The notes beneath the pieces are model-generated. The model was not told the origin of the DNA and made no database searches. It worked only from the letters and a program-made list of their open reading frames with translations. From IMG/VR virus record IMGVR_UViG_2703718774_000012: a stretch of 64,000 nt of DNA. One strand, written 5' to 3'. The first letter of the stretch is position 1; each line of letters opens with the position of its first letter. Below are positions 1-23,296 of this stretch, piece by piece. Position numbers and translations under genes: made by a program. Source of the stretch: a virus (taxonomy: Duplodnaviria; Heunggongvirae; Uroviricota; Caudoviricetes).

Positions 1-106
1 ATTTGCCTGATAATTCCCTTTCCGCCCGTGCCAGCATTCCTTTTAGACTCGCATTCTCTTTTTCAAGAATCTCTATGCGCGCCTGTAACTCAGCTTTCGT
101 TGGCAT
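1..106 (-). CDS. hypothetical coiled-coil protein, N-terminal part only (gene runs off the window start)
   Basis: ATG at 104-106 (minus) opens frame MPTKAELQARIEILEKENASLKGMLARAERELSGK that continues past position 1; absent from ORF track because truncated. Confidence 0.3.
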   Translation of the reverse strand, partial: MPTKAELQARIEILEKENASLKGMLARAERELSGK

Positions 107-770
107 GGTCCGCCTCATGCTTTTCAGCCACCAGCGGCAATAAAGCCCTGGCCATCTTATGAACCAACAGAGCATCGATAATGCCAAGCGTATGCCCCGG
201 CTTAATGTTTAATGCCGCCTCAAGGTGACACCTTTCCAGGTCACTTTTCTCGGCTTGTTTATGATGATCTGGCGTAATAACGTCGCCCAAAACACGGCTA
301 ATTCTTTCTCGTAATTGCCGGGTGCCTGCACACTTGATCGCTGTATCGTGGAGACGGTTAACCAGTTCGCGATAAACATGCGGCTTAATGCGGATACGTT
401 CACCGGTGACGCCCTTTCCTGGCGCTGGCACCGAACTATCCGGAATATCCGGATAGTTGCCAGCCTCGTAAGCTACCCGCAGCCAGTGCATGAATGTTTC
501 AGTAGACACACAACCACAGTCCACATCGATTTTTCCGCGTTGCTGTTCCAGCCACTGCTCAAAATTCAATCTACACGTATTACTTTCATGTTGCTCTTTT
601 TGTCTTAAGGCCAGCACCTGTTGGGCCAGTTCCAGAACGATACCGGGTGACGCTAACCTCTCAAATTCCAATAAATAGTTTGCGTCAGGATGACAAGTAG
701 CCTCGCCTGCAAAAAATACCAATTGCTGTAAGTATGCTGTCGTTAGAGTAGTCATTTCTTTTTGCGCCAT
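90..770 (-). CDS. hypothetical protein (226 aa)
   Basis: Long ORF in track; tightly packed in minus-strand operon; no family recognised by eye. Confidence 0.5.
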   Translation of the reverse strand: MAQKEMTTLTTAYLQQLVFFAGEATCHPDANYLLEFERLASPGIVLELAQQVLALRQKEQHESNTCRLNFEQWLEQQRGKIDVDCGCVSTETFMHWLRVAYEAGNYPDIPDSSVPAPGKGVTGERIRIKPHVYRELVNRLHDTAIKCAGTRQLRERISRVLGDVITPDHHKQAEKSDLERCHLEAALNIKPGHTLGIIDALLVHKMARALLPLVAEKHEADHANES

Positions 771-1126
771 TTCTTTTCACATTCCTTAGTCCATTTTTCA
801 ATGTTCATTTTGGCAATATCAGTCATTCCATCACCTAAGAAATACTTTTTCCGGTACGTCTTGCACTTAAACCACACTACAACAGCCACCAGCCAGAAAA
901 TAAAAGGCCATACAGCAATACCAACTCCAGCCGCGATAAAGCCCAATAGCCATAAATGAAGCTCTCCAACTTCTGTTTGCGGCAATATTCTTAAAGAATT
1001 AAACAGCAGGCTGAACGAATGGTCGTATGCATTGGCAGTATAAGACATGCAATCCATATAATTAAAGTCATAGCCTGCGGCTGCCGCCCATAATGGGCGG
1101 TCAAGAAAATGTTTTAGTGTCATCAT
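752..1126 (-). CDS. small membrane protein (2 predicted TM helices), basic C-terminus
   Basis: ORF track; hydrophobic stretches LWLLGFIAAGVGIAVWPFIFWLVAVVVWF; start uncertain. Confidence 0.4.
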   Translation of the reverse strand: MMTLKHFLDRPLWAAAAGYDFNYMDCMSYTANAYDHSFSLLFNSLRILPQTEVGELHLWLLGFIAAGVGIAVWPFIFWLVAVVVWFKCKTYRKKYFLGDGMTDIAKMNIEKWTKECEKKWRKKK

Positions 1127-1132
1127 ATAAAT

Positions 1133-1513
1133 TTAAGGTTCAGACCAGTTATCTTCAATAGCAATGCTTAATCTTTGTAGCCATTCTGCTAATTTCAGCA
1201 TTGCTTCTCTTTCGCTTAAACCACGAGGAAAATCATCAAGCGATATTGTTGGCTTGAAGCCCCCGTAATTATCCATTTCAACGGTCAGATTTTGCTCCAG
1301 TACGGTATTCCTTACGCGGCTATTGTGGCGAAGCAAATATACTGAACGTGATTTATTGGTTTTGTGGTCGAGCTGATATTCGGTAAGTATCATCTGGCTT
1401 TTTCCATGACTATTACCTCTCCACATACTTACCCCACTTAATAAAACAACTCCATACGTAGTTGATGATTTTTCCCCACGTAATATAAATATGCACTCCA
1501 GCAGAAAAACCAA
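1133..1513 (-). CDS. hypothetical protein (126 aa)
   Basis: ORF track; operon context only. Confidence 0.4.
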   Translation of the reverse strand: MVFLLECIFILRGEKSSTTYGVVLLSGVSMWRGNSHGKSQMILTEYQLDHKTNKSRSVYLLRHNSRVRNTVLEQNLTVEMDNYGGFKPTISLDDFPRGLSEREAMLKLAEWLQRLSIAIEDNWSEP

Positions 1514-1604
1514 AACCTACAATTACTGAAAAAATCAAAACATTTACTTTTGACATTATAAAACTTCTCTCTGTGTCGTAGGTGATAGAACCATAATTGA
1601 TAAT

Positions 1605-1856
1605 TTAGTGAGTTAGCAGTTCCATTTTTTTGATGATTTCCGCATGAGCATCATCGTTATCAACACTTAGCTCGTTTAATGCTTCTCGCACTACATCAAC
1701 TTCTTCTGGTTGGAAGAAATCATCTCGGTAGTCACCAAATAGAACCGAAACAAGCCTGCCACCGGCAACATCAAGATTGGCGCTAACAGGTGGCTCTTTA
1801 CCATCCTCAAATTCGACTACAAAAGTTATTTTTCCCATCGTTACCACCAGCGACAA
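1605..1856 (-). CDS. hypothetical protein (83 aa, acidic)
   Basis: ORF track; operon context. Confidence 0.4.
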   Translation of the reverse strand: MSLVVTMGKITFVVEFEDGKEPPVSANLDVAGGRLVSVLFGDYRDDFFQPEEVDVVREALNELSVDNDDAHAEIIKKMELLTH

Positions 1857-1920
1857 ATTGAATACAAACCCAGTGCTGCCGCCATCACAATTCCTACCGT
1901 GGTGAATGCTTCAGGCCAGG

Positions 1921-2265
1921 TCATCGTAAAACATCCTCTGCGCTTATCAGTCCGTTTCGCTTCAGGTAGTCCATCGCCTTACCCGGCAATTTACAGTCCG
2001 GCTTCGTTTTCCTCAGTTGCCAGGTTAACTGCTTTACCAGCATGGTTAACTCGTCGACCAGACGCTGATGTCCCACTGGTTTGTATTCATGCAATTTACC
2101 GGCTGGCTCTGCTGCCAGCGATGCCAGTGCGATTTCCAGAACAGCAATATCCATCTTATATGTGCGGATGATGTCATGGTCGATTGTGCCCGGTATACAC
2201 AGTCTCTGTGCTTCAATAGTCTCCTCTGCGTGAGCTATTAACTGCTCTCTGGTAATAGTGGTCAT
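1921..2265 (-). CDS. hypothetical protein (114 aa)
   Basis: ORF track; stop/start overlap with downstream gene at 2262-2265. Confidence 0.45.
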
Positions 2266-2777
2266 GCCGCGTTTCCTTCTTTCTTATTAACAATTACACC
2301 GTCATATATTTCATTAAGGTGCCCTCTCAACTCCATGCGCCTTAATGCAGACAACATGTAATCGCATTCAACCTGCTTATTTCCAGTAAATGGCTTATCG
2401 TCAGGATTACCCCAACAGCAATTACCCTTGGGCCACCCATGTACTTTCCGTACTCTTCCGTTAACAACGTGAAGTAATCCCCAGCCAGGTGGTAAATCCT
2501 CAACTGAAATAATTCCCGGCTCACTAATAAAGAATCGCCAGTCGCCCATGCCAAGTGAGGGATTTTTACGGAAACGCTTTTTTCTATCTGCCAACAAGTC
2601 AGCACGAGAACATTTCGCCTCTATCAGGCATGATGCTGAATTTCTGAATCCCATAGCATCTGGCTGTTCTCCGGTACTGGTTACAGCTATAAAGCGGTCA
2701 TGAAAACAAACCTTGAACCCGTTGCGCTTAAGGAACTTGTACGCAATCTGACAGAGTTCGCGGTGTGTTAACGCCAT
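2262..2777 (-). CDS. hypothetical protein with PD-(D/E)xK-nuclease-like signature
   Basis: Start re-placed at ATG 2775-2777 (MALTHREL...) preceded by AAGGAG 8 nt upstream; motif ...PDAMG...CLIEAKCS resembles D...(E)xK nuclease core; inference from motif only. Confidence 0.45.
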
Positions 2778-2778
2778 A

Positions 2779-3663
2779 TCACTCTCCTTTGATGCGAATG
2801 CCAGCAAGCCAGTTTCTTATGCCGATATATTCAGCGTTCCTGAAACCGCCATTTACATATATAAATGGCAAGCGAAGATTGTGACCATTGACTGCCAGGT
2901 AGTCTTTACAACCCTGTTCGGTGAAACAGCAGGTAACGAATTCATCAATATCTTTCACAGCAACGCGCCGCCATTTTTCTGGTGGCTCTCGAAAGTTTTC
3001 GTGAAGTAGTTCGAGACGACGACTTTGGCGTTTATTGGCTTCATTGCCATCTTCATCAACCCAGACAATCCGGTCATAGTCATAATCAGCATCAACAACG
3101 ATTTCGCGCTTTTGATACACACAAAACATAGGGTCTGACGTTATTCGATTATCCTGTGTTCGAATATTTTCACCGATGATGCCAAACGAATCTGGTGCAG
3201 ATTTTGTCTGCAACTCTTCGATACGTTCAGCCATCGCAGCACACTCTTCAAAGTTGCTTAATGCTTTTCGCTCCCATTCGGCGCATTGTTTTTCCAGTTC
3301 TGCTATGCGCTTACTTCCATCCGCTATTACTCCCTCGTAATATTCACGCTGCTCGTTGAGTTTTGATTTTGCTGCTTCAAGCTCAACGCGCAGCTTCCCT
3401 ACCGTTAGCGCAATATCCTCGTTCTCCTGGTCGCGGCGTTTGATGTATTGCTGGTTTCTTTCCCGTTCATCCAGTAGTGCCAGCACGGTTTCTGGTCCGG
3501 CCAGAAATTTGAAGGCGTTGAGCGCATCAATATCCACACCGTAATCTTTAAGTTCCTGTTCACTTAACAAATCATCATCAGCTGGCAACATTAACAGGCG
3601 TTCCATTGCTGGAATTGCACGTTCCGCCGCCTCACGCAGTGCCTGATAGTCAATCTTGCTCAC
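2779..3663 (-). CDS. Ea22/ead-like prophage protein (294 aa)
   Basis: N-terminus MSKIDYQALREAAERA and coiled-coil region typical of ead/Ea22-like family; paralogous to adjacent gene. Confidence 0.55.
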   Translation of the reverse strand: MSKIDYQALREAAERAIPAMERLLMLPADDDLLSEQELKDYGVDIDALNAFKFLAGPETVLALLDERERNQQYIKRRDQENEDIALTVGKLRVELEAAKSKLNEQREYYEGVIADGSKRIAELEKQCAEWERKALSNFEECAAMAERIEELQTKSAPDSFGIIGENIRTQDNRITSDPMFCVYQKREIVVDADYDYDRIVWVDEDGNEANKRQSRRLELLHENFREPPEKWRRVAVKDIDEFVTCCFTEQGCKDYLAVNGHNLRLPFIYVNGGFRNAEYIGIRNWLAGIRIKGE

Positions 3664-4361
3664 TGGTTGCCTCCTTTTCGAAGCTGGGCGGCGATATCTT
3701 CGAGAACGCCATCAGAGAATGAGCGGTCAAAATCGCCTTCCGGCGCATTAGCCATAAACTCAGTAGAGGTAAGAATCATCCGGGCAATATCCGCGGCGTT
3801 CTTCGCAGTATCATCAATAAAACCAGCTTCCCAGGCAGCCAGCATTCTGTTCGCCACAAAATAAGCGCCTTCCTTGCGTGCTTCAGTCTTCACTTCAGCT
3901 AGAAAAGCATCGGTAGCTGGAGTTTCGCTGTGGTGCAGGGCATCGTTGATAATCATTGCAGCAACTCCGGCCTGCCCTGCATCCGTGACCGACACATGCT
4001 CAAGAGTTACGGCCATTGCGTGTTTCAGCCCGGCGTTCTCTGCCACCAGCGCCGCGAGATTAGTCTCAAGCTCTGCAATTCGACACATAGCATCAATATT
4101 TGTGTCCTCCAGGCACTTAATTTCACCAAGCAGCTCCAGTGCAACCTTTGGGTTGAACGCGGCAACATGACGAGCGTTGTTCTCTGCATTTTTCTGTCCA
4201 TCAAAGCCGGTCCATTTGATAACGTCTTCACATCGTTCATCACCGGGCGTGTGCACCGCATAAGTACCAGTATCCGTCGAAATAAATGCGACCCATTCGT
4301 CTGGTGTTGCCTTTTCTGCCGCCTCACGCAGTACCTGATAGTCAATTGTCATTCTCGCCAT
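3660..4361 (-). CDS. Ea22/ead-like prophage protein (233 aa)
   Basis: N-terminus MTIDYQVLREAAEKA and C-terminus ...AAQLRKGGNQ shared with paralogs; ATGA overlap with next gene. Confidence 0.55.
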   Translation of the reverse strand: MARMTIDYQVLREAAEKATPDEWVAFISTDTGTYAVHTPGDERCEDVIKWTGFDGQKNAENNARHVAAFNPKVALELLGEIKCLEDTNIDAMCRIAELETNLAALVAENAGLKHAMAVTLEHVSVTDAGQAGVAAMIINDALHHSETPATDAFLAEVKTEARKEGAYFVANRMLAAWEAGFIDDTAKNAADIARMILTSTEFMANAPEGDFDRSFSDGVLEDIAAQLRKGGNQ

Positions 4362-4975
4362 CCTTCACAGTTGTAATCACTACAGCCTTCAAAATCATAT
4401 GGGCTGTACTGCCAGGTTATTTTTCCGCAATGCGGACAATTCCAACGCACCTTCCCGCTTCGCGACTTCTTTCTTCTGTTCTGCTCTTCCAACCAGTCAG
4501 GCATGACCAAACCTGCGCCCTGAACCATTGTTCTGCGGTTAAAGTTATTGATATTGAACGTCCGACGCTTTGCTGCATCAGCAATGGAAAATGGCAACCA
4601 AACTATTCCTGGTTCGTTTTTGTTGGCGACGCTAAAGATGGTCGCTTTACTGAAGTCATCTGTTGGCAATCCACCGTGTTGAAGCCAGTAAACATCGTTG
4701 CCGTTCCAGCTACCTTTTTTGTAGGCCACATACGCAGTGCAATCTGACTCAATCAGGCTTTCTGTAGGGATGTACTGGCAATCAACGTGCCACACAGCCA
4801 TTGCATCCACACTATCGGCACAAACAGGCTGATCGATATCTCGACCACAATTCCAGGCTTTTTGGGCTTCTTCCTGCGTGTAAACATGTGCTCGATCGAT
4901 ATCAGAACTGTAACCATTGCCGTTATGGCAATGGAATGAGGCGTTATTACCCACAGTTTCACGCAAGCACATCAT
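4349..4975 (-). CDS. hypothetical protein with C-terminal Cys-rich (CPHCG...C..C) zinc-ribbon-like region
   Basis: ORF track 4349..5029; start moved to in-frame MM at 4975/4972 because upstream part overlaps preceding gene; start uncertain. Confidence 0.4.
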   Translation of the reverse strand: MMCLRETVGNNASFHCHNGNGYSSDIDRAHVYTQEEAQKAWNCGRDIDQPVCADSVDAMAVWHVDCQYIPTESLIESDCTAYVAYKKGSWNGNDVYWLQHGGLPTDDFSKATIFSVANKNEPGIVWLPFSIADAAKRRTFNINNFNRRTMVQGAGLVMPDWLEEQNRRKKSRSGKVRWNCPHCGKITWQYSPYDFEGCSDYNCEGWRE

Positions 4976-4989
4976 GTAAAAACGGTTAC

Positions 4990-5229
4990 TCACTGGTTGC
5001 CTCCTTGGCGGAGTTGCGCTGCGATGCACGAAAAAAAAGACTCCCGAGTGTGACAGTTAAGAGCTGGTGCGAACGCCGCGTTAAGAACGGCGGAATCACA
5101 GCCGTCATCAATATAGAGCGCAATTTTTTTCTCCAGGCGCGCTTTGGCTTCCTGCAACTGCATACCCCGGCACGCACGCGGGATATAATCAGCAATTTGA
5201 GCGATAGCTTTTTCGTTCTGTTTAAACAT
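4990..5229 (-). CDS. truncated Ea22-like paralog (79 aa, C-terminal homology only)
   Basis: Ends ...CIAAQLRQGGNQ like the 233-aa paralog; same junction sequence tcactggttgcctcc follows both genes; contains an A8/T8 homopolymer. Confidence 0.4.
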   Translation of the reverse strand: MFKQNEKAIAQIADYIPRACRGMQLQEAKARLEKKIALYIDDGCDSAVLNAAFAPALNCHTRESFFSCIAAQLRQGGNQ

Positions 5230-5425
5230 GCTTCACCTCGATAGGCTTGATGGTGTCTAACAGCAGTCGGCGGCGCGTATTTTCTGCAAAATGGCGGCGT
5301 CCAGTTTCTTTGTGGTAAAACTCGTTTTTGCCAACGACCCACATCCGCTCTGTTTGGTGCAGTTTTTTTACCTTCGGGCCATCTTTGGTGATCACGGTAC
5401 CGGTATGGGTTTTTACGATTGTCAT
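5222..5425 (-). CDS. small hypothetical protein (67 aa)
   Basis: ORF track; 4-nt overlaps with both neighbours. Confidence 0.4.
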   Translation of the reverse strand: MTIVKTHTGTVITKDGPKVKKLHQTERMWVVGKNEFYHKETGRRHFAENTRRRLLLDTIKPIEVKHV

Positions 5426-6300
5426 TCCACTACCTCTTCGAATTTCAACTCCGATTGGTCACCCCAGATTTCACATGATTCGGAACACGAACCAGTATCA
5501 AACCGCTTGGCCAGCACCATCGCCTGATACAAATTTCTGTAGTCACTGTCGGCATACATTCTGGCAATCCCGTCAAGCGTCAGGTGGCCACGGTACATAA
5601 CGTCTTTACCTGTTCTGCGATGACCATCCCTGACGTGTTTGCCTGTAACCAGTTCATTAAAAACCCGCATCAGACCTGGTTCGTCTTTACATGCAAGCCC
5701 CAGCTTTTGCGTTGACTTTTTGATGCAAAAAACACAGTTCCCGAGGTGCTCCGGGATTTGCAAATCAAAAGGTTGTTTTCGCCACCACCGGATAACATCC
5801 GACTTATCAAAATCTGACAGTTCGGCAAGATACCGGACGCCCGGTTTCGGTTTCAGCCTACGGGGTTCGTCCGCACGAATACCGAGCCATGTGATGTAAT
5901 TCCCTCGCCCAAAATGGTCATCGCAATATTTCGTGAAAGGGGTGAGTTTTAGCCTGTCGGTACAGAACGCGCCGCCGATGTATGGCGTACCGTACTTTTT
6001 AACCATGTCCATAAACGGTTTAAGCACCGGCATTCGCGTCTGAATATCCTTTGGTTCCCATTCCGTATAACCATTTGGCTGCCCAAGTTCTGGATTTATA
6101 TCGACCTGCAACACCGTTAGCGGTACGTTCCAGAACTTCACAACCTCACGAATAAAGCGATACGTCAGAGGATGTTCACAGCCGGTATCCATAAAAATGA
6201 AATGGACGCTAGCGCCAGCTTTTCGCTGTGCTTCCATCAGATGAACGAGATAAGCCGATGTTCGTCCACCTGAAAAGCTGACGACTTGATGCATACTCAC
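5422..6300 (-). CDS. phosphoadenosine-phosphosulfate (PAPS) reductase family / PP-loop protein
   Basis: N-terminal PP-loop-like SFSGGRTSA and overall similarity to PAPS reductase-like phage proteins (recalled family pattern). Confidence 0.65.
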   Translation of the reverse strand: MSMHQVVSFSGGRTSAYLVHLMEAQRKAGASVHFIFMDTGCEHPLTYRFIREVVKFWNVPLTVLQVDINPELGQPNGYTEWEPKDIQTRMPVLKPFMDMVKKYGTPYIGGAFCTDRLKLTPFTKYCDDHFGRGNYITWLGIRADEPRRLKPKPGVRYLAELSDFDKSDVIRWWRKQPFDLQIPEHLGNCVFCIKKSTQKLGLACKDEPGLMRVFNELVTGKHVRDGHRRTGKDVMYRGHLTLDGIARMYADSDYRNLYQAMVLAKRFDTGSCSESCEIWGDQSELKFEEVVE

Positions 6301-6303
6301 GGT

Positions 6304-6882
6304 TTATTCCTGAATGCGCTTAAACTCGATTACCCATACCAACGGGTTAGATAGCCAGTTATCCTGCCCGTAAATACTGCGCCAGATATCACCAAAACCA
6401 ACGCGATAAACAGCTTCAGATGGCGTAATCTTGTACGTCGCCGGAGTTGCGCCTTCTGCTTTAGCATCTGCCTCGCTCATGTCATGCAGCCGTTCCACAC
6501 GCACGTCGGTAATTTCCAGAAGAATGCGCGATGCCCAGCGCGGCATGTGAATTGATGGCGTCCACTTTTCTGATACTGGTTTATTACAAACCTCGACCGG
6601 AACCCGGTGCGTTTGTTCTGTCCAGGAGTTACGCACGCTTGCGCGATAAACCAGCGTTGCGACGTCCGTCGCTTTGCCATGTACCCGGTAGGTTTCGCGA
6701 ACCCAAATACGATCGCCCGGTTGACCATATGGACAATGCTTAGCAAGCAACTCTGCGGCCACTGCCCGTCCATAGAATTTTTCTTCAACAATCCTGCGAG
6801 TCTGTGTTTTATTCCCGCCAAGAATTGCCCGGACCATCTCATCGTTGAAAATCATGCCGCGCTCTTTCACTTCGCCTTTCAT
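6304..6882 (-). CDS. ASCH-domain-like protein
   Basis: N-terminal MIFNDEMVRAILGGNKTQTRR resembles ASCH G-x-K-T-x-T-x-R motif; recalled pattern. Confidence 0.5.
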   Translation of the reverse strand: MKGEVKERGMIFNDEMVRAILGGNKTQTRRIVEEKFYGRAVAAELLAKHCPYGQPGDRIWVRETYRVHGKATDVATLVYRASVRNSWTEQTHRVPVEVCNKPVSEKWTPSIHMPRWASRILLEITDVRVERLHDMSEADAKAEGATPATYKITPSEAVYRVGFGDIWRSIYGQDNWLSNPLVWVIEFKRIQE

Positions 6883-6891
6883 GCATCCCCC

Positions 6892-6978
6892 TTACCCATG
6901 CGCGACGATGCCGCCAAAAGTGATAGAGAACAGCCAGAAATAGATCGCGGCCATAATGATTTTGAATGCCGTGTTCAT
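6892..6978 (-). CDS. small hydrophobic peptide (28 aa, MNTAFKIIMAAIYFWLFSITFGGIVAHG)
   Basis: Not in track (too short); ATG preceded by AGGAG with 8-nt spacer; first gene downstream of an operator/promoter; single predicted TM helix. Confidence 0.35.
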   Translation of the reverse strand: MNTAFKIIMAAIYFWLFSITFGGIVAHG

Positions 6979-7060
6979 ATTTTCAGCTCCTGTGATTGAT
7001 TGGATACATGCCGCGCCTTGCGGCATGTTTTTATTTTCACTTTCTCTATTTTAAAAATCA

Positions 7061-7077
7061 AGATTTATTAGAGCAAT
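7061..7077 (-). promoter_or_regulatory. C1-repressor-type operator (minus strand reads ATTGCTCTAATAAATCT), overlapping candidate -35 TTGCTC / -10 TAAAAT promoter
   Basis: 16/17 match to recalled P1 C1 operator consensus ATTGCTCTAATAAATTT; overlaps stop codon of HAD gene. Confidence 0.5.
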
Positions 7078-7583
7078 TATTGTTGGTGGAGAAGCGCGTT
7101 TTCATACTCCCTGACCATTAACGTAAGTACGCCGTGACTCCTGAAAACACGCGCCACTTCAATCTTATCTTCCAGCGCGAACGCAATTTTACTTAGACCA
7201 ATTTTCTTCAGGAGATCAATCTTTGCTGGACCATCATTTCTGTCATCGGTGGCAGGACGCATAGATAGCAAAGGCTCAGCCCCGTTTGTTACGTACTTCC
7301 GCAGCCAGGCTCGTGTTTTATCCCTTGCGATCTCACAGCGCCCGGTTACAAACCAGACCGTGTAAACGTTAAATAACTGGCGCACCATATCAATAACCGG
7401 AGTGATGGGAGTATCGGTGTCACAGGCGAGATTAAACTCGTTCCAGTCCTTTGTTAATGCACCTTTACCTGGTGGCGGAAGCAAATGCAGTCTGTCTTCA
7501 GTTGCCTCTGATATTGTTCCATCAATATCGACTATGACGATATACGGACGTTCCTGGTGTGCGTGTTTATTGAAAATACTCAA
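7077..7583 (-). CDS. HAD-superfamily hydrolase-like protein
   Basis: Motif I DIDGT near N-terminus (IVIVDIDGTIS), later TGR and DD motifs; ORF track. Confidence 0.5.
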   Translation of the reverse strand: MSIFNKHAHQERPYIVIVDIDGTISEATEDRLHLLPPPGKGALTKDWNEFNLACDTDTPITPVIDMVRQLFNVYTVWFVTGRCEIARDKTRAWLRKYVTNGAEPLLSMRPATDDRNDGPAKIDLLKKIGLSKIAFALEDKIEVARVFRSHGVLTLMVREYENALLHQQ

Positions 7584-7655
7584 ATGCCCTCCTCATTGGA
7601 CGAAAAAAATGCTGGTGGGCGCACTCCACCAGCATTAAAAGTGACGCTGTAACTA

Positions 7656-8918
7656 TCAGCGGACGTAAATAGTGCCGCCGTTCTCTTTTTCCCATGCATC
7701 GCTACGTGCATAGCAAACATCGAGAAGTCTTCTTGCCGCTGTTTCCTCTAAACCCAATTCGACAACCAACTGCTCATGACGGCGGGTAACCACATCAAAC
7801 AGGGTATGCAACCCTTTAGTTGCCAGATCATCAATGAATTCCGGTTCGAACGGCAGCTCTGTATCTGCCAACATAACCTCTTGCGCCCACTCAACTCGAC
7901 GGACCAATTCCGGGCGGCGGCTTTCCATCTCTTTACAGATCAATTCATGGAAGAACTCTACCCAACCTTCCGGCTGGAACTCGCGGAAAATTGCCAACGG
8001 CTGGAAGTTTGGCATCAACCATTCGTTGATACGGATATCAATGGCATAGCCCATGTCGCAGCAGAACTGATAAGCAAAGTCCAGCTTAGAAACGATATAA
8101 GGACGCTCGTTATTGAACTCTTTAGGCGATGAGATCCCATAAGCCAGGAGGCGCGGGAAGAAGGAGATTTGCCCTAACGTCGGATGAAGTTTGCTTGCAG
8201 GGAAACGGCGCTCAGTAATGCCATACATTTCCTTCTTGAGCGTCGCAAATTTGGCATTCTCATTAACCAGCGCGGTAACCTCTGCTTTTTTATTAGCAAA
8301 TGCCACGCGCGCTTCGCTTGCATCTTTAATAGTTTTTTTGAGCTGTTGGTTAAGGTCGGCGACCTGCTTACGCAGTTCCTGTCGCTCGCTTTTAGCTTTG
8401 TTATAGCGTTTCTCAAGGTTAAAAGGATCAAGTTTCATGATCTCTTTATATTGAGATTTTAGCGTTGAAATCTGTGAGTTCCGCAGTTCAACCATCGCGG
8501 TCATTTCATTGAGTTTTGTTTCCAGCTCAATGCTTATACGTTCGGCATTATCAGCACGCTGGTTGGCGTCATGCGTCGCATCGTCGATCGCGTCCTGTTG
8601 CTGGCGTTTCAAATGTTCAATTTGTAGCTGAAGCTCTTCAATTTCTTTACCCTTCAGACCGAGATCCAACTGCATATTTTCAGCTGCATCTACCAGGGAG
8701 TTATGGCTATCAGCTTCTGCGTTATAAACATCAATAAGCTGTGCGTGAAGCATCTCCGCTGACTGAACCGCATTATCAAAAAAACGCGCTGTGAGGTCAT
8801 CACAACTAACGCGGCGTTGCGCGGCCCGGATGTTCTGGATAATGGCCGGGATACCGGCATTCAGGACGTCAGGGATAGATACATTTTCGATTGATTGGTT
8901 TTGTGCTGAAGTGATCAT
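7656..8918 (-). CDS. large coiled-coil protein (420 aa), function unknown
   Basis: ORF track; long heptad-rich central region (ELQLQIEHLKRQQQD...). Confidence 0.5.
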   Translation of the reverse strand: MITSAQNQSIENVSIPDVLNAGIPAIIQNIRAAQRRVSCDDLTARFFDNAVQSAEMLHAQLIDVYNAEADSHNSLVDAAENMQLDLGLKGKEIEELQLQIEHLKRQQQDAIDDATHDANQRADNAERISIELETKLNEMTAMVELRNSQISTLKSQYKEIMKLDPFNLEKRYNKAKSERQELRKQVADLNQQLKKTIKDASEARVAFANKKAEVTALVNENAKFATLKKEMYGITERRFPASKLHPTLGQISFFPRLLAYGISSPKEFNNERPYIVSKLDFAYQFCCDMGYAIDIRINEWLMPNFQPLAIFREFQPEGWVEFFHELICKEMESRRPELVRRVEWAQEVMLADTELPFEPEFIDDLATKGLHTLFDVVTRRHEQLVVELGLEETAARRLLDVCYARSDAWEKENGGTIYVR

Positions 8919-8919
8919 T

Positions 8920-9138
8920 TCAAAGTTCCGTATTAGCTTGTGCTTCGGTCATTTTTCCTAAGTATGAAGGAGGAAGGACTACGCAATTTGTATCCAGTCC
9001 CTCACCTATGGCAGCCTGTAAAATTCTGGCTAAGGTGAGTCTCTTGTTGCGATACCTGGTGATGACATGCCTGATACCGCCGGTCGGCGTAACAAAGGCG
9101 ATCAGCCAGTAGTGATATTTCCGTCGGAATGGCCACAT
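8920..9138 (-). CDS. hypothetical protein (72 aa)
   Basis: ORF track; AAGGTG RBS upstream of ATG 9136-9138; first gene after operator pair. Confidence 0.45.
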   Translation of the reverse strand: MWPFRRKYHYWLIAFVTPTGGIRHVITRYRNKRLTLARILQAAIGEGLDTNCVVLPPSYLGKMTEAQANTEL

Positions 9139-9152
9139 AGTGCACCTTGTAG

Positions 9153-9218
9153 ATTGCTCTAATAAAAAACGTGATGAGTGTACATCACGTTTTAAAAATA
9201 TGGAATTATTAGAGCAAT
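9153..9218. promoter_or_regulatory. pair of inverted C1-operator-like sites (9153-9169 fwd ATTGCTCTAATAAAAAA; 9202-9218 rev ATTGCTCTAATAATTCC) flanking a 28-bp palindrome
   Basis: Read directly; palindrome AAAACGTGATGagtgtacATCACGTTTT (9166-9193) followed by T-runs on both strands. Confidence 0.5.
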
Positions 9219-9219
9219 A

Positions 9220-23267: not shown

Positions 23268-23296
23268 TATTACACTAATAAATTTATTAGAGCAAT
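23268..23296. promoter_or_regulatory. composite operator: perfect consensus site ATTGCTCTAATAAATTT (minus, 23280-23296) overlapped by inverted partial site; candidate promoter of tRNA-ban operon
   Basis: 17/17 match; TTGCTC -35, 17-bp spacer, TAATAT -10 on minus strand; overlaps the last codons of the methyltransferase gene. Confidence 0.6.

What the first reader, a model, noticed from the sequence alone, without database searches (positions are those of the whole stretch)
5422..7077. Operator-controlled mini-operon: 28-aa hydrophobic peptide, ASCH protein and PAPS-reductase-like PP-loop protein
An operator-overlapping promoter is followed by a well-RBS'd 28-aa single-TM peptide absent from the ORF track, then an ASCH-like protein and a PAPS-reductase-family protein. 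PAPS-reductase-like PP-loop enzymes are used by DNA-modification systems such as Dnd-type phosphorothioation, so DNA or RNA modification under lysogenic control is a possibility. A plus-oriented hairpin plus T-run (7006-7038) sits between promoter and peptide gene.
Basis: inference. Interest (0 to 1): 0.5.

Follow-up and report, generated by a model that had tools for sequence, protein, structure and literature searches.

The report
P1 early accessory operon with leader peptide
This is the start of a known repressor-controlled, non-essential early operon of a P1-like phage-plasmid. Its one under-appreciated feature is a small conserved membrane-peptide gene that precedes a swappable set of accessory genes.

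Summary
The window is a P1-like phage-plasmid. The operator at 7061-7077 is P1's known C1 operator OpmgT (former Op88), called Op(hea) in P7. It overlaps the -35 hexamers of the two promoters predicted in the P1 record.

The 28-aa ORF is a real gene. In a divergent Salmonella lineage it keeps 14/28 identical residues at 45% nucleotide divergence (simulation P about 1e-4), with the same position, Shine-Dalgarno sequence and frame.

The hairpin is conserved in position but not in sequence, and starts 6 nt after the conserved -10. It is best read as a 5'-terminal mRNA stem-loop. The plus-strand T-run is the complement of the -10 region and is absent in the sister lineage.

It is not a three-gene mini-operon. 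Overlapping genes continue for about 7 kb. Cargo after the peptide varies, and NinC follows ASCH in only 6 of 80 P1-like contigs.

The enzyme functions remain unknown. Interest is modest.

The parts
7061..7077 (-). C1 repressor operator (P1 OpmgT / former Op88; P7 Op(hea)). Its first base is the last base of the pap stop codon.
   Evidence: 16/17 match to the consensus, with 9 sites in the window against 0.33 expected. The orthologous sites are annotated in AF234172 and AF503408.
7033..7061 (-). Predicted sigma-70 promoter equivalent to P1pmgT: -35 TTGATT (7061-7056), 17-nt spacer, -10 GAAAAT (7038-7033). This is the promoter conserved across lineages.
   Evidence: It is invariant in 54 of 55 P1-like leaders and is kept as TTGATT-17-AAGAAT in the divergent L007 lineage. 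It is a prediction only, matching 8/12 positions.
7048..7076 (-). Predicted promoter equivalent to P2pmgT: -35 TTGCTC inside the operator, -10 TAAAAT.
   Evidence: The -10 reads TAAAAC or worse in the other 55 P1-like leaders examined, and TAGATA in L007. This promoter is therefore less conserved.
7006..7028 (-). GC-rich stem-loop that starts 6 nt after the -10 GAAAAT. Proposed to be the 5'-terminal stem-loop of the operon mRNA. On the plus strand it reads as hairpin plus T-run.
   Evidence: A different hairpin sequence sits at the same position in L007, L010 and L011, with no T-run on either strand. Two independent C>T stem variants keep G.U pairs only in the sense RNA.
6892..6978 (-). 28-aa single-span hydrophobic peptide gene (MNTAFKIIMAAIYFWLFSITFGGIVAHG), with SD AGGAG at 6987-6991. 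It is the first cistron of the operon.
   Evidence: - Against the L007 lineage it has 14/28 identical residues and BLOSUM62 score 76, with 38/84 nucleotide differences. Simulation gives P(identity)=1.2e-4 and P(score)<1e-5; the other two frames give only 7 identities each.
- Within the L007 lineage there are 5 synonymous and 0 non-synonymous changes in the first 28 codons.
- The gene is present in 75 of 76 P1-like contigs that carry pap, whatever cargo follows.
6304..6882 (-). 192-aa PmgT-family protein with an ASCH (PUA-like) fold and a YqfB-type G-x-K-x-x-T-x-R motif (K25, T28, R30).
   Evidence: - 43% identical to P1 PmgT.
- AF2 model pLDDT 90.
- Pfam ASCH is only sub-threshold: 15.3 bits against 21.2, with 31 of 54 relatives giving weak hits.
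- The YqfB catalytic residues Lys21, Thr24 and Arg26 are from PMC6972931.
5422..6300 (-). Ortholog of lambda NinC: a PP-loop ATP pyrophosphatase (SFSGGRTS) with six invariant cysteines. The likely true start is the ATG at 6294, giving 290 aa.
   Evidence: - 80% identical to lambda NinC over 285 aa.
- Pfam PAPS_reduct scores 37.7 bits over residues 6-72 only.
- Invariant C113, C126, C189, C192, C272 and C276.
- AF2 model pLDDT 88.6.
90..5425 (-). Continuation of the same transcription unit: at least 11 further co-oriented, mostly overlapping genes. They are the 67-aa and 79-aa proteins, a Upf87.6-like 226-aa protein, two Ead/Ea22-like proteins, and others ending in a protein with a PmgU-like C-terminus.
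   Evidence: ORF list and start/stop overlaps. Pfam and PHROG hits. No strong minus-strand intrinsic terminator lies in 1-5400.

Best explanation
The region is the control region and first three cistrons of the C1-repressed early accessory operon of a P1-like phage-plasmid. This operon is called pmgT in P1 and hea in P7.

Proposed mechanism:
1. In the plasmid prophage, C1 binds the single operator that overlaps the -35 hexamers of two weak sigma-70 promoters, and the operon is silent.
2. On infection or induction, transcription starts a few bases before a GC-rich stem-loop. This gives the mRNA a 5'-terminal hairpin that probably protects it from 5'-end-dependent decay.
3. An unstructured CAAUCAAUCA-type leader and a strong Shine-Dalgarno sequence drive translation of a 28-aa single-span membrane peptide.
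4. The peptide's stop codon lies 9 nt before the next start codon, so the cargo genes are probably translationally coupled to it.

The operator, promoter, hairpin and peptide form the conserved 'head' of the unit. Everything after the peptide stop codon is exchangeable cargo shared with lambdoid prophages.

In this element the cargo begins with two enzymes. The first is a PmgT-type ASCH enzyme, likely an N4-acyl-cytidine-type amidohydrolase or modified-base reader. The second is lambda NinC, a cysteine-rich PP-loop ATPase that probably adenylates a nucleotide or nucleic-acid substrate for sulfur or nitrogen transfer. The whole operon is dispensable for plaque formation in the laboratory.

What is shown here: the identity of the operator, the coding status of the peptide, the two folds, NinC orthology, and cargo variability. 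What is inferred: the transcription start, the role of the hairpin, translational coupling, and both enzyme activities.
For: - Operator identity.
- Promoter and hairpin geometry conserved between two lineages even though the hairpin sequences are unrelated.
- Stem variants compatible only with sense-RNA pairing.
- Peptide under protein-level selection.
- Peptide retained with ASCH cargo, other cargo, or a convergent hsdR.
- ASCH fold and motif.
- NinC orthology, invariant cysteines and PP-loop fold.
- Mosaic link to Stx and lambdoid early-left regions at 92.5% nucleotide identity.
- P1 pmgT, pmgU and pmgV and lambda ninC scored non-essential by CRISPRi (PMC10695390).
- Gene overlaps and no internal terminator.
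Against: - Neither promoter reaches the scanner's 9/12 threshold, and no transcription-start data were available.
- The hairpin with its T-run also fits a plus-strand terminator pattern.
- Only two peptide lineages exist, so conservation rests on one deep comparison plus within-lineage polymorphism.
- Within P1-likes there are 5 singleton non-synonymous variants, and the Gly22/Gly23 positions vary in the hsdR-type loci.
- The Pfam ASCH score is below its gathering threshold.
- No biochemical function is known for PmgT or NinC.
Confidence: 0.7

Rival explanations
1. One reading: a compact three-gene module that modifies DNA or RNA in a Dnd/Ssp-like way (phosphorothioation), with the PP-loop protein as sulfur-transferase and the ASCH protein as its partner.
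For: - The NinC N-terminal domain hits PADLOC SspD (E 1.8e-13) and, weakly, BrxP and DndC.
- Six invariant cysteines could bind an Fe-S cluster, as in DndC, TtuA and NcsA.
- NinC-Dam methyltransferase fusions in Vibrio phages suggest a DNA-linked role.
- ASCH-NinC adjacency recurs in both P1-like and non-P1 contexts, with a conserved junction.
Against: - The DndC model TIGR03183 scores 17.8 bits against a cut-off of 290, and the match covers only the generic PP-loop part.
- There is no cysteine desulfurase and no DndB/D/E or SspA/B/C gene in the operon.
- NinC follows the ASCH gene in only 6 of 80 P1-like contigs. In 53 of 80 NinC loci the upstream neighbour is instead an HD/YfbR-like protein.
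- The operon runs on for about 7 kb.
- From general knowledge: lambda DNA, made in the presence of NinC, is a heavily used standard with no reported backbone or base modification beyond host methylation.
Confidence: 0.1
2. The peptide is a type I toxin (or other antisense-regulated small membrane toxin). The plus-strand hairpin and T-run at 7006-7038 would be the terminator of a cis-antisense RNA covering its ribosome-binding site.
For: - The product is a 28-aa, strongly hydrophobic single-span peptide (core Kyte-Doolittle hydropathy 2.1).
- A terminator-like motif on the opposite strand lies immediately upstream of the SD, with z-score -4.2.
- There is a weak sRNA-like Rfam hit on the plus strand at 6951-7034: GcvB, 20 bits against a gathering score of 42, E 0.05.
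- The peptide is retained even where it is the only gene left in the unit.
Against: - No plus-strand promoter better than 8/12 was found, and none is positionally conserved in the sister lineage.
- The T-run is the complement of the -10 GAAAAT plus AAAAAC, and it is absent in the L007 lineage, where the hairpin persists.
- Both stem substitutions seen in P1-likes would create A.C mismatches in an antisense RNA but G.U pairs in the sense RNA.
- The peptide matches no toxin family in Pfam or NCBIfam.
- Expression is already controlled by C1.
Confidence: 0.1
3. The short ORF is not a functional gene product. It would be a chance ORF, or a leader ORF whose translation matters but whose sequence does not.
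For: - It is unannotated in the curated P1 and P7 records.
- It matches no protein family.
- An 84-nt ORF stays open by chance in 43% of simulated divergences.
- Several singleton non-synonymous variants exist.
Against: - Amino-acid identity and similarity across lineages are far above the neutral expectation (P 1.2e-4 and <1e-5), and only in this reading frame.
- Within the L007 lineage there are 5 synonymous and 0 non-synonymous changes in the conserved 28 codons, while the C-terminal tail varies.
- The only high-frequency polymorphism in P1-likes is synonymous: GCG against GCA, 23 against 27 loci.
- The SD and start codon are conserved in both lineages.
Confidence: 0.08
4. The PP-loop gene is a phage-borne auxiliary metabolic copy of host sulfate-assimilation PAPS reductase (cysH).
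For: Public records annotate it as 'phosphoadenosine phosphosulfate reductase family protein'. PHROG 424 is filed under auxiliary metabolic genes.
Against: - Only residues 6-72 match PAPS_reduct.
- The cysH and PAPS-reductase NCBIfam models score 13-22 bits against cut-offs of 154-254.
- The catalytic ECG[IL]H motif is absent.
Confidence: 0.02

Closest known systems
Bacteriophage P1 OpmgT (Op88)-controlled pmgT-pmgU-pmgV operon, and the P7 Op(hea)/hea operon
   Same: - Same operator sequence and position, overlapping the pap stop codon.
- Same predicted promoters, hairpin and peptide ORF (97-98% nucleotide identity over 6860-7110).
- The first large gene is a PmgT/Upf86.8 homolog.
   Different: The cargo differs. 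Here a 192-aa PmgT variant is followed by lambda-type NinC and lambdoid Ea-type genes. P1 has PmgT (309 aa), PmgU and PmgV. P7 has Upf87.4 and Upf87.6. The 28-aa ORF is not annotated in either reference record.
Lambda NinC (nin region, ORF-290)
   Same: 80% amino-acid identity over the full length, with the same PP-loop and the same six cysteines. It is non-essential.
   Different: It sits in a C1-controlled P1-type operon after an ASCH gene, rather than between ninB and ninD under pR/N control. Its closest DNA relatives lie in the early-left regions of Stx2 phages.
E. coli YqfB and other ASCH-domain ac4C amidohydrolases / tRNA ac4C erasers
   Different: It is about 90 residues longer, with insertions and a C-terminal helical region. 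It is below the Pfam ASCH threshold. The substrate is untested, and the equivalent of Glu74 was not mapped.
DndC / SspD / BrxP PAPS-reductase-like DNA phosphorothioation enzymes
   Same: A PP-loop N-terminal domain. The best PADLOC hit is SspD. Like them it is cysteine-rich.
   Different: It fails the curated family cut-offs. None of the partner genes that define those systems is present. It is about 290 aa, against 450-780 aa.
5'-terminal stem-loops that stabilise bacterial mRNAs (e.g. ompA 5' UTR); comparison from general knowledge
   Same: A stable hairpin within a few nucleotides of the predicted 5' end, followed by an unstructured leader and SD.
   Different: The transcription start and any effect on mRNA half-life have not been measured here.
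Small hydrophobic bacterial and phage membrane peptides (type I toxins such as TisB and Ibs; regulators such as MgtR and AcrZ); comparison from general knowledge
   Same: Size (28 aa), a single predicted membrane span, and absence from standard annotation.
   Different: There is no sequence similarity to any of them, no convincing antisense RNA, and the gene is the first cistron of a repressor-controlled phage operon.

Membership tests
P1 C1 repressor operator | 17-bp asymmetric site matching ATTGCTCTAATAAATTT | tested here: met
   16/17 match at 7061-7077. The window holds 9 sites against 0.33 expected.
P1 C1 repressor operator | Orthology to an operator documented in P1 or P7 | tested here: met
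   It aligns with OpmgT (former Op88) of AF234172 and Op(hea) of AF503408.
P1 C1 repressor operator | C1 binding and repression of the downstream promoter | not testable with these tools
   The P1 record cites earlier Op88 sequence entries (M25414, X98146). No binding data were read here.
Sigma-70 promoter | -35 and -10 hexamers with 16-18 nt spacing, close to consensus | tested here: inconclusive
   Both candidates match 8/12, below the tool's threshold of 9/12. The TTGATT/GAAAAT pair is conserved across lineages.
ASCH domain (PF04266) | Pfam gathering score | tested here: not met
   15.3 bits against 21.2. Of 54 family members, 31 give weak hits, best E 0.0011.
ASCH domain (PF04266) | ASCH/PUA-like beta-barrel fold | tested here: met
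ASCH domain (PF04266) | Octapeptide motif G-x-K-x-x-[E/T]-x-R | tested here: met
   G23-N-K25-T-Q-T28-R-R30. K25, T28, R29 and R30 are invariant in 54 homologs.
ASCH domain (PF04266) | ac4C / N4-acyl-cytidine amidohydrolase activity | not testable with these tools
   Inferred only, from YqfB and from the 19 ASCH proteins tested in bioRxiv 10.64898/2026.02.27.708502.
Lambda NinC family | Full-length similarity to lambda NinC | tested here: met
   227/285 identical, E 0.0.
PP-loop ATP pyrophosphatase / PAPS_reduct (PF01507) | Pfam gathering score and an SGGxxS PP-loop | tested here: met
CysH PAPS/APS reductase | Curated equivalog score and the C-terminal ECG[IL]H catalytic cysteine motif | tested here: not met
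   NF002537 scores 21.9 against 154. TIGR02057 scores 13 against 254. The motif is absent.
DndC / SspD DNA phosphorothioation | Curated family score | tested here: not met
   TIGR03183 scores 17.8 bits against 290.4. The PADLOC SspD match is partial, covering model positions 2-121 of 277.
DndC / SspD DNA phosphorothioation | Partner genes (dndA/B/D/E or sspA/B/C) in the locus | tested here: not met
   None appear among the operon's Pfam, PHROG or PADLOC hits.
Type I toxin-antitoxin | Small hydrophobic membrane peptide | tested here: met
   28 aa, core hydropathy 2.1.
Type I toxin-antitoxin | Cis- or trans-encoded antisense RNA with its own promoter and terminator | tested here: not met
   A terminator-like motif is present. 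However, there is no conserved plus-strand promoter, the T-run is absent in the sister lineage, and stem variants disfavour antisense pairing.
Type I toxin-antitoxin | Toxicity on overexpression | not testable with these tools
   Needs an experiment.
Rho-independent terminator (plus strand, 7006-7038) | GC hairpin followed by a U-run, placed downstream of a transcribed unit on that strand, and conserved | tested here: inconclusive
   The pattern is met. There is no plus-strand gene upstream of it in 1-12,500, and the U-run is not conserved in L007, L010 or L011.

The most novel reading that the evidence does not exclude
There are two parts to the most novel reading not excluded.

1. The operator-hairpin-peptide 'head' is a dedicated expression platform into which P1-like phage-plasmids load exchangeable cargo. 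Its 28-aa membrane peptide would be a functional early protein in its own right, for example a membrane-acting host-takeover, exclusion or toxin-like factor, present in essentially all P1-like elements yet missing from the P1 reference annotation.
2. The ASCH and NinC pair would act together on cytidine-type modifications of host tRNA or nucleic acid. ASCH would remove an N4-acyl group, and the Fe-S PP-loop NinC would adenylate and re-derivatise the base. This would give lambda NinC its first function.
Probability: 0.1. Interest if true: 0.7.

Novelty: new member of a known kind. Interest (0 to 1): 0.3.

Why it matters
Most of this locus is textbook P1 biology. The operator, the predicted promoters, PmgT and NinC are all in public annotated records, and near-identical plasmids are common. 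Three points go beyond the existing annotation.

1. A 28-aa membrane-peptide gene under clear protein-level selection heads the operon in essentially every P1-like element examined. It is absent from the curated P1 and P7 records. It survives even where all cargo has been replaced by a convergent type I restriction system.

2. Cargo exchange with lambdoid prophages begins exactly after this peptide's stop codon. This defines a recombination and expression platform for accessory genes in a clinically widespread family of phage-plasmids.

3. PmgT, long labelled 'putative morphogenetic function', is an ASCH enzyme with the YqfB-type catalytic motif. NinC is a cysteine-rich PP-loop enzyme that is sometimes fused to a Dam methylase. 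Both observations give concrete, cheap biochemical tests for two phage proteins that have had no function for decades.

None of this is surprising enough to rank highly.

Tried and rejected
- A protein search with the 192-aa protein returned only hits of 96% identity or more, which were useless for an alignment. The representative search was used instead.
- A genome-contig scan with Pap gave only two near-identical E. coli loci.
- tblastn of PmgS against plasmids with 'spread' rows did not expose the nine records below 60% identity, so no third lineage could be examined.
- A profile search with the peptide found only the two known lineages. A first attempt failed because the first sequence was shorter than 40 aa.
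- A viral-contig scan with NinC gave only relatives of 92% identity or more. It was useful for gene context but not for diversity. Searching with lambda NinC gave the diverse set.
- PDB sequence searches with the ASCH protein and with its family profile found nothing.
- Pfam, NCBIfam and PHROGs gave no family for the peptide.
- Rfam gave only a sub-threshold GcvB hit, judged to be chance.
- A relaxed search for an antisense promoter found nothing conserved.
- Literature searches found no function for NinC and no paper on the pmgT/hea operon. The P1 genome paper (tried as PMC523184) is not held.
- I considered that ASCH and NinC form an obligate two-enzyme pathway. I rejected this as the default reading because NinC is present after the ASCH gene in only 6 of 80 P1-like contigs, and its usual neighbour elsewhere is an HD-domain protein.
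Full report
**What the window is.** The 2.4 kb around the finding is 99.9% identical to E. coli plasmid CP148519.1 and to dozens of other plasmids of about 95 kb. Parts of it match phages P1, P7 and SJ46 at 95-98%. The neighbouring genes are P1 late and early genes in P1 order: pmgS at 7656-8918, pap at 7077-7583, then pmgR, pmgQ and ppp further up. The element is a P1-like phage-plasmid (Punavirus). Everything discussed here lies on the minus strand.

**Checking the observation.**
- The 17-mer ATTGCTCTAATAAATCT at 7061-7077 matches the C1 operator consensus at 16/17. The window holds nine such sites where 0.33 are expected.
- This site aligns with the annotated operator OpmgT (former Op88) of P1 and Op(hea) of P7, which that record says is 'predicted to regulate expression of hea operon'.
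- The P1 record places two predicted sigma-70 promoters on it. Their equivalents here are TTGCTC-17-TAAAAT (7076-7048) and TTGATT-17-GAAAAT (7061-7033). Both match only 8/12 and fall below the 9/12 threshold of the scanning tool.
- The hairpin at 7006-7028 followed by TTTTTATTTTC on the plus strand was found by the terminator scan.
- The 28-aa ORF at 6892-6978 has AGGAG 8 nt upstream of its ATG.

The operator and promoters are therefore already known. The ORF is not annotated in the curated P1 and P7 records. SJ46 annotates it as a 44-aa 'membrane protein', and a few NCBI entries carry it as 28 aa.

**The peptide is a real gene.** A divergent P1-like lineage in Salmonella plasmids (L007, L010, L011; PmgS 69% identical) lacks pap. 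After its pmgS it has the same layout: operator ATTGCTCTAATAAATAT, TTGATT-17-AAGAAT, a hairpin, a CAATCAATCA leader, GGAG, and an ORF beginning MHTVFKLAMAAFYIWIFTIVFTGIA.

Over the 28 shared codons the two lineages differ at 38 of 84 nucleotides, distributed 12, 8 and 18 by codon position. They still share 14 identical residues with a BLOSUM62 score of 76. In 100,000 simulations with the same number of random substitutions, only 0.012% reached that identity and none reached that score. The other two frames give 7 identities each.

Further support comes from polymorphism within each lineage.
- Within the Salmonella lineage, the first 28 codons carry five synonymous and no non-synonymous differences, while the 18-residue tail varies.
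- In 55 P1-like leaders, the only common polymorphism is synonymous (GCG against GCA). Non-synonymous changes are singletons.

The N-terminal extension of the 44-aa annotation is not conserved, because in L007 the upstream ATG is in another frame. The product has a short polar N-terminus with Lys6, followed by a 19-residue hydrophobic span. It matches no family in Pfam, NCBIfam or PHROGs.

**The hairpin.** The two lineages have unrelated stem sequences: ACAUGCCGC/GCGGCAUGU against AGGCCAC/GUGGCCU. In both, the stem begins 6 nt after the conserved -10 hexamer, and both fold stably as sense RNA (-17.2 and -11.8 kcal/mol; z -3.1 and -2.2).

The plus-strand T-run of the window is the complement of GAAAAT (the -10) plus AAAAAC. 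The Salmonella lineage has no T-run on either strand.

Two independent stem substitutions occur among P1-like contigs. One is C>T at the loop-closing pair, in 8 loci. The other is C>T at the second pair, in 1 locus. Both leave G.U pairs in the sense RNA but would give A.C mismatches in a plus-strand RNA.

No plus-strand gene lies upstream of the motif in the first 12.5 kb. No conserved plus-strand promoter was found.

My reading is that the hairpin is a 5'-terminal stem-loop of the operon mRNA, and that the 'terminator' appearance is incidental. This rests on a predicted transcription start, not a measured one.

**The 192-aa protein.** It is 43% identical to P1 PmgT, with an identical N-terminus, and it is the homolog of P7 Upf86.8. 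The family is very large: 42,792 cluster representatives at E<=0.001.

K25, T28, R29 and R30 are invariant. They reproduce the K-x-x-T-x-R spacing of YqfB's essential Lys21, Thr24 and Arg26 (PMC6972931). This is the 'GKTR' subgroup of ASCH amidohydrolases. A 2026 preprint reports that all 19 ASCH proteins it tested remove ac4C from tRNA.

The ASCH call is therefore supported by structure and motif, though not by the Pfam threshold. An amidohydrolase or modified-base-binding role is inferred.

**The 292-aa protein.** It is 80% identical to lambda NinC over 285 residues, and it probably starts at the ATG at 6294.
- Only residues 6-72 match PAPS_reduct.
- The cysH, PAPS-reductase and DndC models score 13-22 bits against cut-offs of 154-290.
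- The best PADLOC hit is a partial SspD match.
- The CysH ECG[IL]H motif is absent.
- In 52 homologs of 53-80% identity, the PP-loop and six cysteines (113, 126, 189, 192, 272, 276) are invariant.
- Two Vibrio-phage homologs are fused to a phage Dam methyltransferase domain. This is a hint of a DNA-linked role.

Lambda ninC and P1 pmgT, pmgU and pmgV are non-essential by CRISPRi (PMC10695390). I found no paper that assigns NinC a function.

**Extent and variability of the unit.** The NinC stop codon overlaps the start of a 67-aa gene. Co-oriented genes, mostly overlapping, continue to at least position 90. They include a 79-aa protein, a Upf87.6-like protein, two Ead/Ea22-like proteins, and finally a protein with a PmgU-like C-terminus. 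No strong minus-strand terminator lies among them. 'Mini-operon' is therefore wrong. This is the head of an early operon of about 7 kb.

The segment from NinC downward is 92.5% identical to the early-left regions of Stx2 phages. There NinC sits downstream of kil, recT and exo.

I surveyed 80 P1-like contigs from IMG/VR.
- pap followed by the peptide occurs in 75.
- The next gene is a PmgT/ASCH variant in about 55.
- NinC follows the ASCH gene in only 6, with either of two ASCH variants.
- In 20 contigs the sequence diverges right after the peptide's TAA-GGGG into a convergent type I hsdR gene.

I also surveyed 80 NinC loci.
- The upstream neighbour is an HD/YfbR-like protein in 53.
- It is an ASCH protein in about 14, including four non-P1 contexts that share the same ASCH-stop / NinC-start junction.
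- It is an unrelated 147-aa protein in about 10.

The ASCH-NinC adjacency is thus recurrent but optional. The conserved module is operator, promoter, hairpin and peptide. What follows is exchangeable cargo.

**Most likely mechanism.**
1. C1 occupies the operator in the plasmid prophage and blocks the overlapping promoters.
2. On infection or induction the operon is transcribed as an early message. Its 5' hairpin probably slows 5'-end-dependent decay.
3. The peptide is translated from a strong SD. It ends 9 nt before the ASCH start, whose SD (GGGGGA) follows the stop codon, so the cargo is probably translationally coupled.
4. The cargo enzymes act on nucleotides or nucleic acids during lytic growth.

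The regulatory anatomy, the coding status of the peptide, the folds and the orthology are shown. The transcription start, the role of the hairpin, the coupling and the enzyme chemistry are inferred. I put 0.7 on this overall picture.

**Rivals.**
- The Dnd-like DNA-modification reading (0.1) has the SspD/DndC-like PP-loop, the cysteines and the Dam fusions in its favour. It lacks every partner gene, fails the family cut-offs, and must cope with NinC's optional presence. It must also cope, from general knowledge, with the absence of any reported unusual modification in lambda DNA.
- The type I toxin/antisense reading (0.1) fits the shape of the peptide and the plus-strand motif. It has no conserved promoter or U-run, and the stem variants argue against it.
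- A non-functional or purely regulatory ORF (0.08) is contradicted by the selection tests.
- A cysH-type metabolic gene (0.02) is refuted.

**Novelty and interest.** The locus is a mosaic member of a known, annotated operon type, and near-identical copies are common in sequenced plasmids. Three modest additions come out of this work:
- a conserved small membrane-peptide gene that is missing from the reference P1 and P7 annotation;
- the reinterpretation of the hairpin as a sense-strand 5' stem-loop;
- the assignment of PmgT to the YqfB-type ASCH enzymes.

The functions of the peptide, of PmgT and of NinC remain open but are cheaply testable. I score interest at 0.3.

Noticed in passing
L025, L031, L039, L043 and others (20 of 80 P1-like IMG/VR loci); L012; L008: Directly after the peptide stop codon (TAAGGGG) the operon cargo is replaced by a convergently oriented type I restriction gene, hsdR, preceded by its own hairpin. 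IncF plasmids carry the peptide fragment next to hsdR. This matches the P1 record's notes on R124/3 and EcoDXXI flanks.
   Followed up: partly
P0336, P0349 (Vibrio phage proteins found with lambda NinC): A full-length NinC domain is fused to a phage Dam (PF05869) DNA adenine methyltransferase domain. This is a possible functional link between NinC and DNA.
   Followed up: partly
L173 2447-3010 and 52 other NinC loci (L094-L173): In lambdoid prophage contigs, NinC is most often preceded by a 187-aa HD-domain, YfbR-like protein that overlaps it. The Pfam YfbR-like score is 24.6 bits against a cut-off of 25.9.
   Followed up: partly
L101-L104: A non-P1 context carries Ser/Thr phosphatase - DUF968-like 331-aa protein - ASCH variant (192-232 aa, N-terminus VDQKMKERG) - NinC. 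The ASCH-stop / NinC-start junction is the same as in the window. The ASCH gene itself looks mosaic.
   Followed up: partly
window 7608-7636 (- strand): A strong intrinsic terminator (11-bp stem plus T-run) lies between pmgS and pap. pap therefore sits between a terminator and the C1 operator, with no obvious promoter of its own.
   Followed up: no
window 9153-9169 (+) and 9202-9218 (-): A pair of C1 operator-like sites with 3 mismatches each lies upstream of the pmgR homolog. They correspond to P1 OpmgRa and OpmgRb (former Op86a/b).
   Followed up: no
window 23269-23296: Two overlapping C1 operator matches on opposite strands (0 and 2 mismatches) form a bivalent operator next to the end of a 1013-aa minus-strand ORF.
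   Followed up: no
window 7048-7053: The -10 hexamer of the P2pmgT-type promoter reads TAAAAT in this window. It reads TAAAAC or a weaker variant in all 55 other P1-like leaders examined, so this element may have a stronger second promoter.
   Followed up: partly
window 90-770 (- strand): A 226-aa protein whose C-terminal half matches P1 PmgU, joined to an unrelated N-terminal half. In P1 itself, pmgT and pmgU overlap by about 195 nt and the PmgT C-terminus diverges after WV, which suggests a frameshift or mosaic junction in the reference.
   Followed up: no
window 6951-7034 (+ strand): A sub-threshold Rfam GcvB match (20.3 bits against a gathering score of 42, E 0.05) spans the plus-strand hairpin. 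It is judged to be chance.
   Followed up: yes
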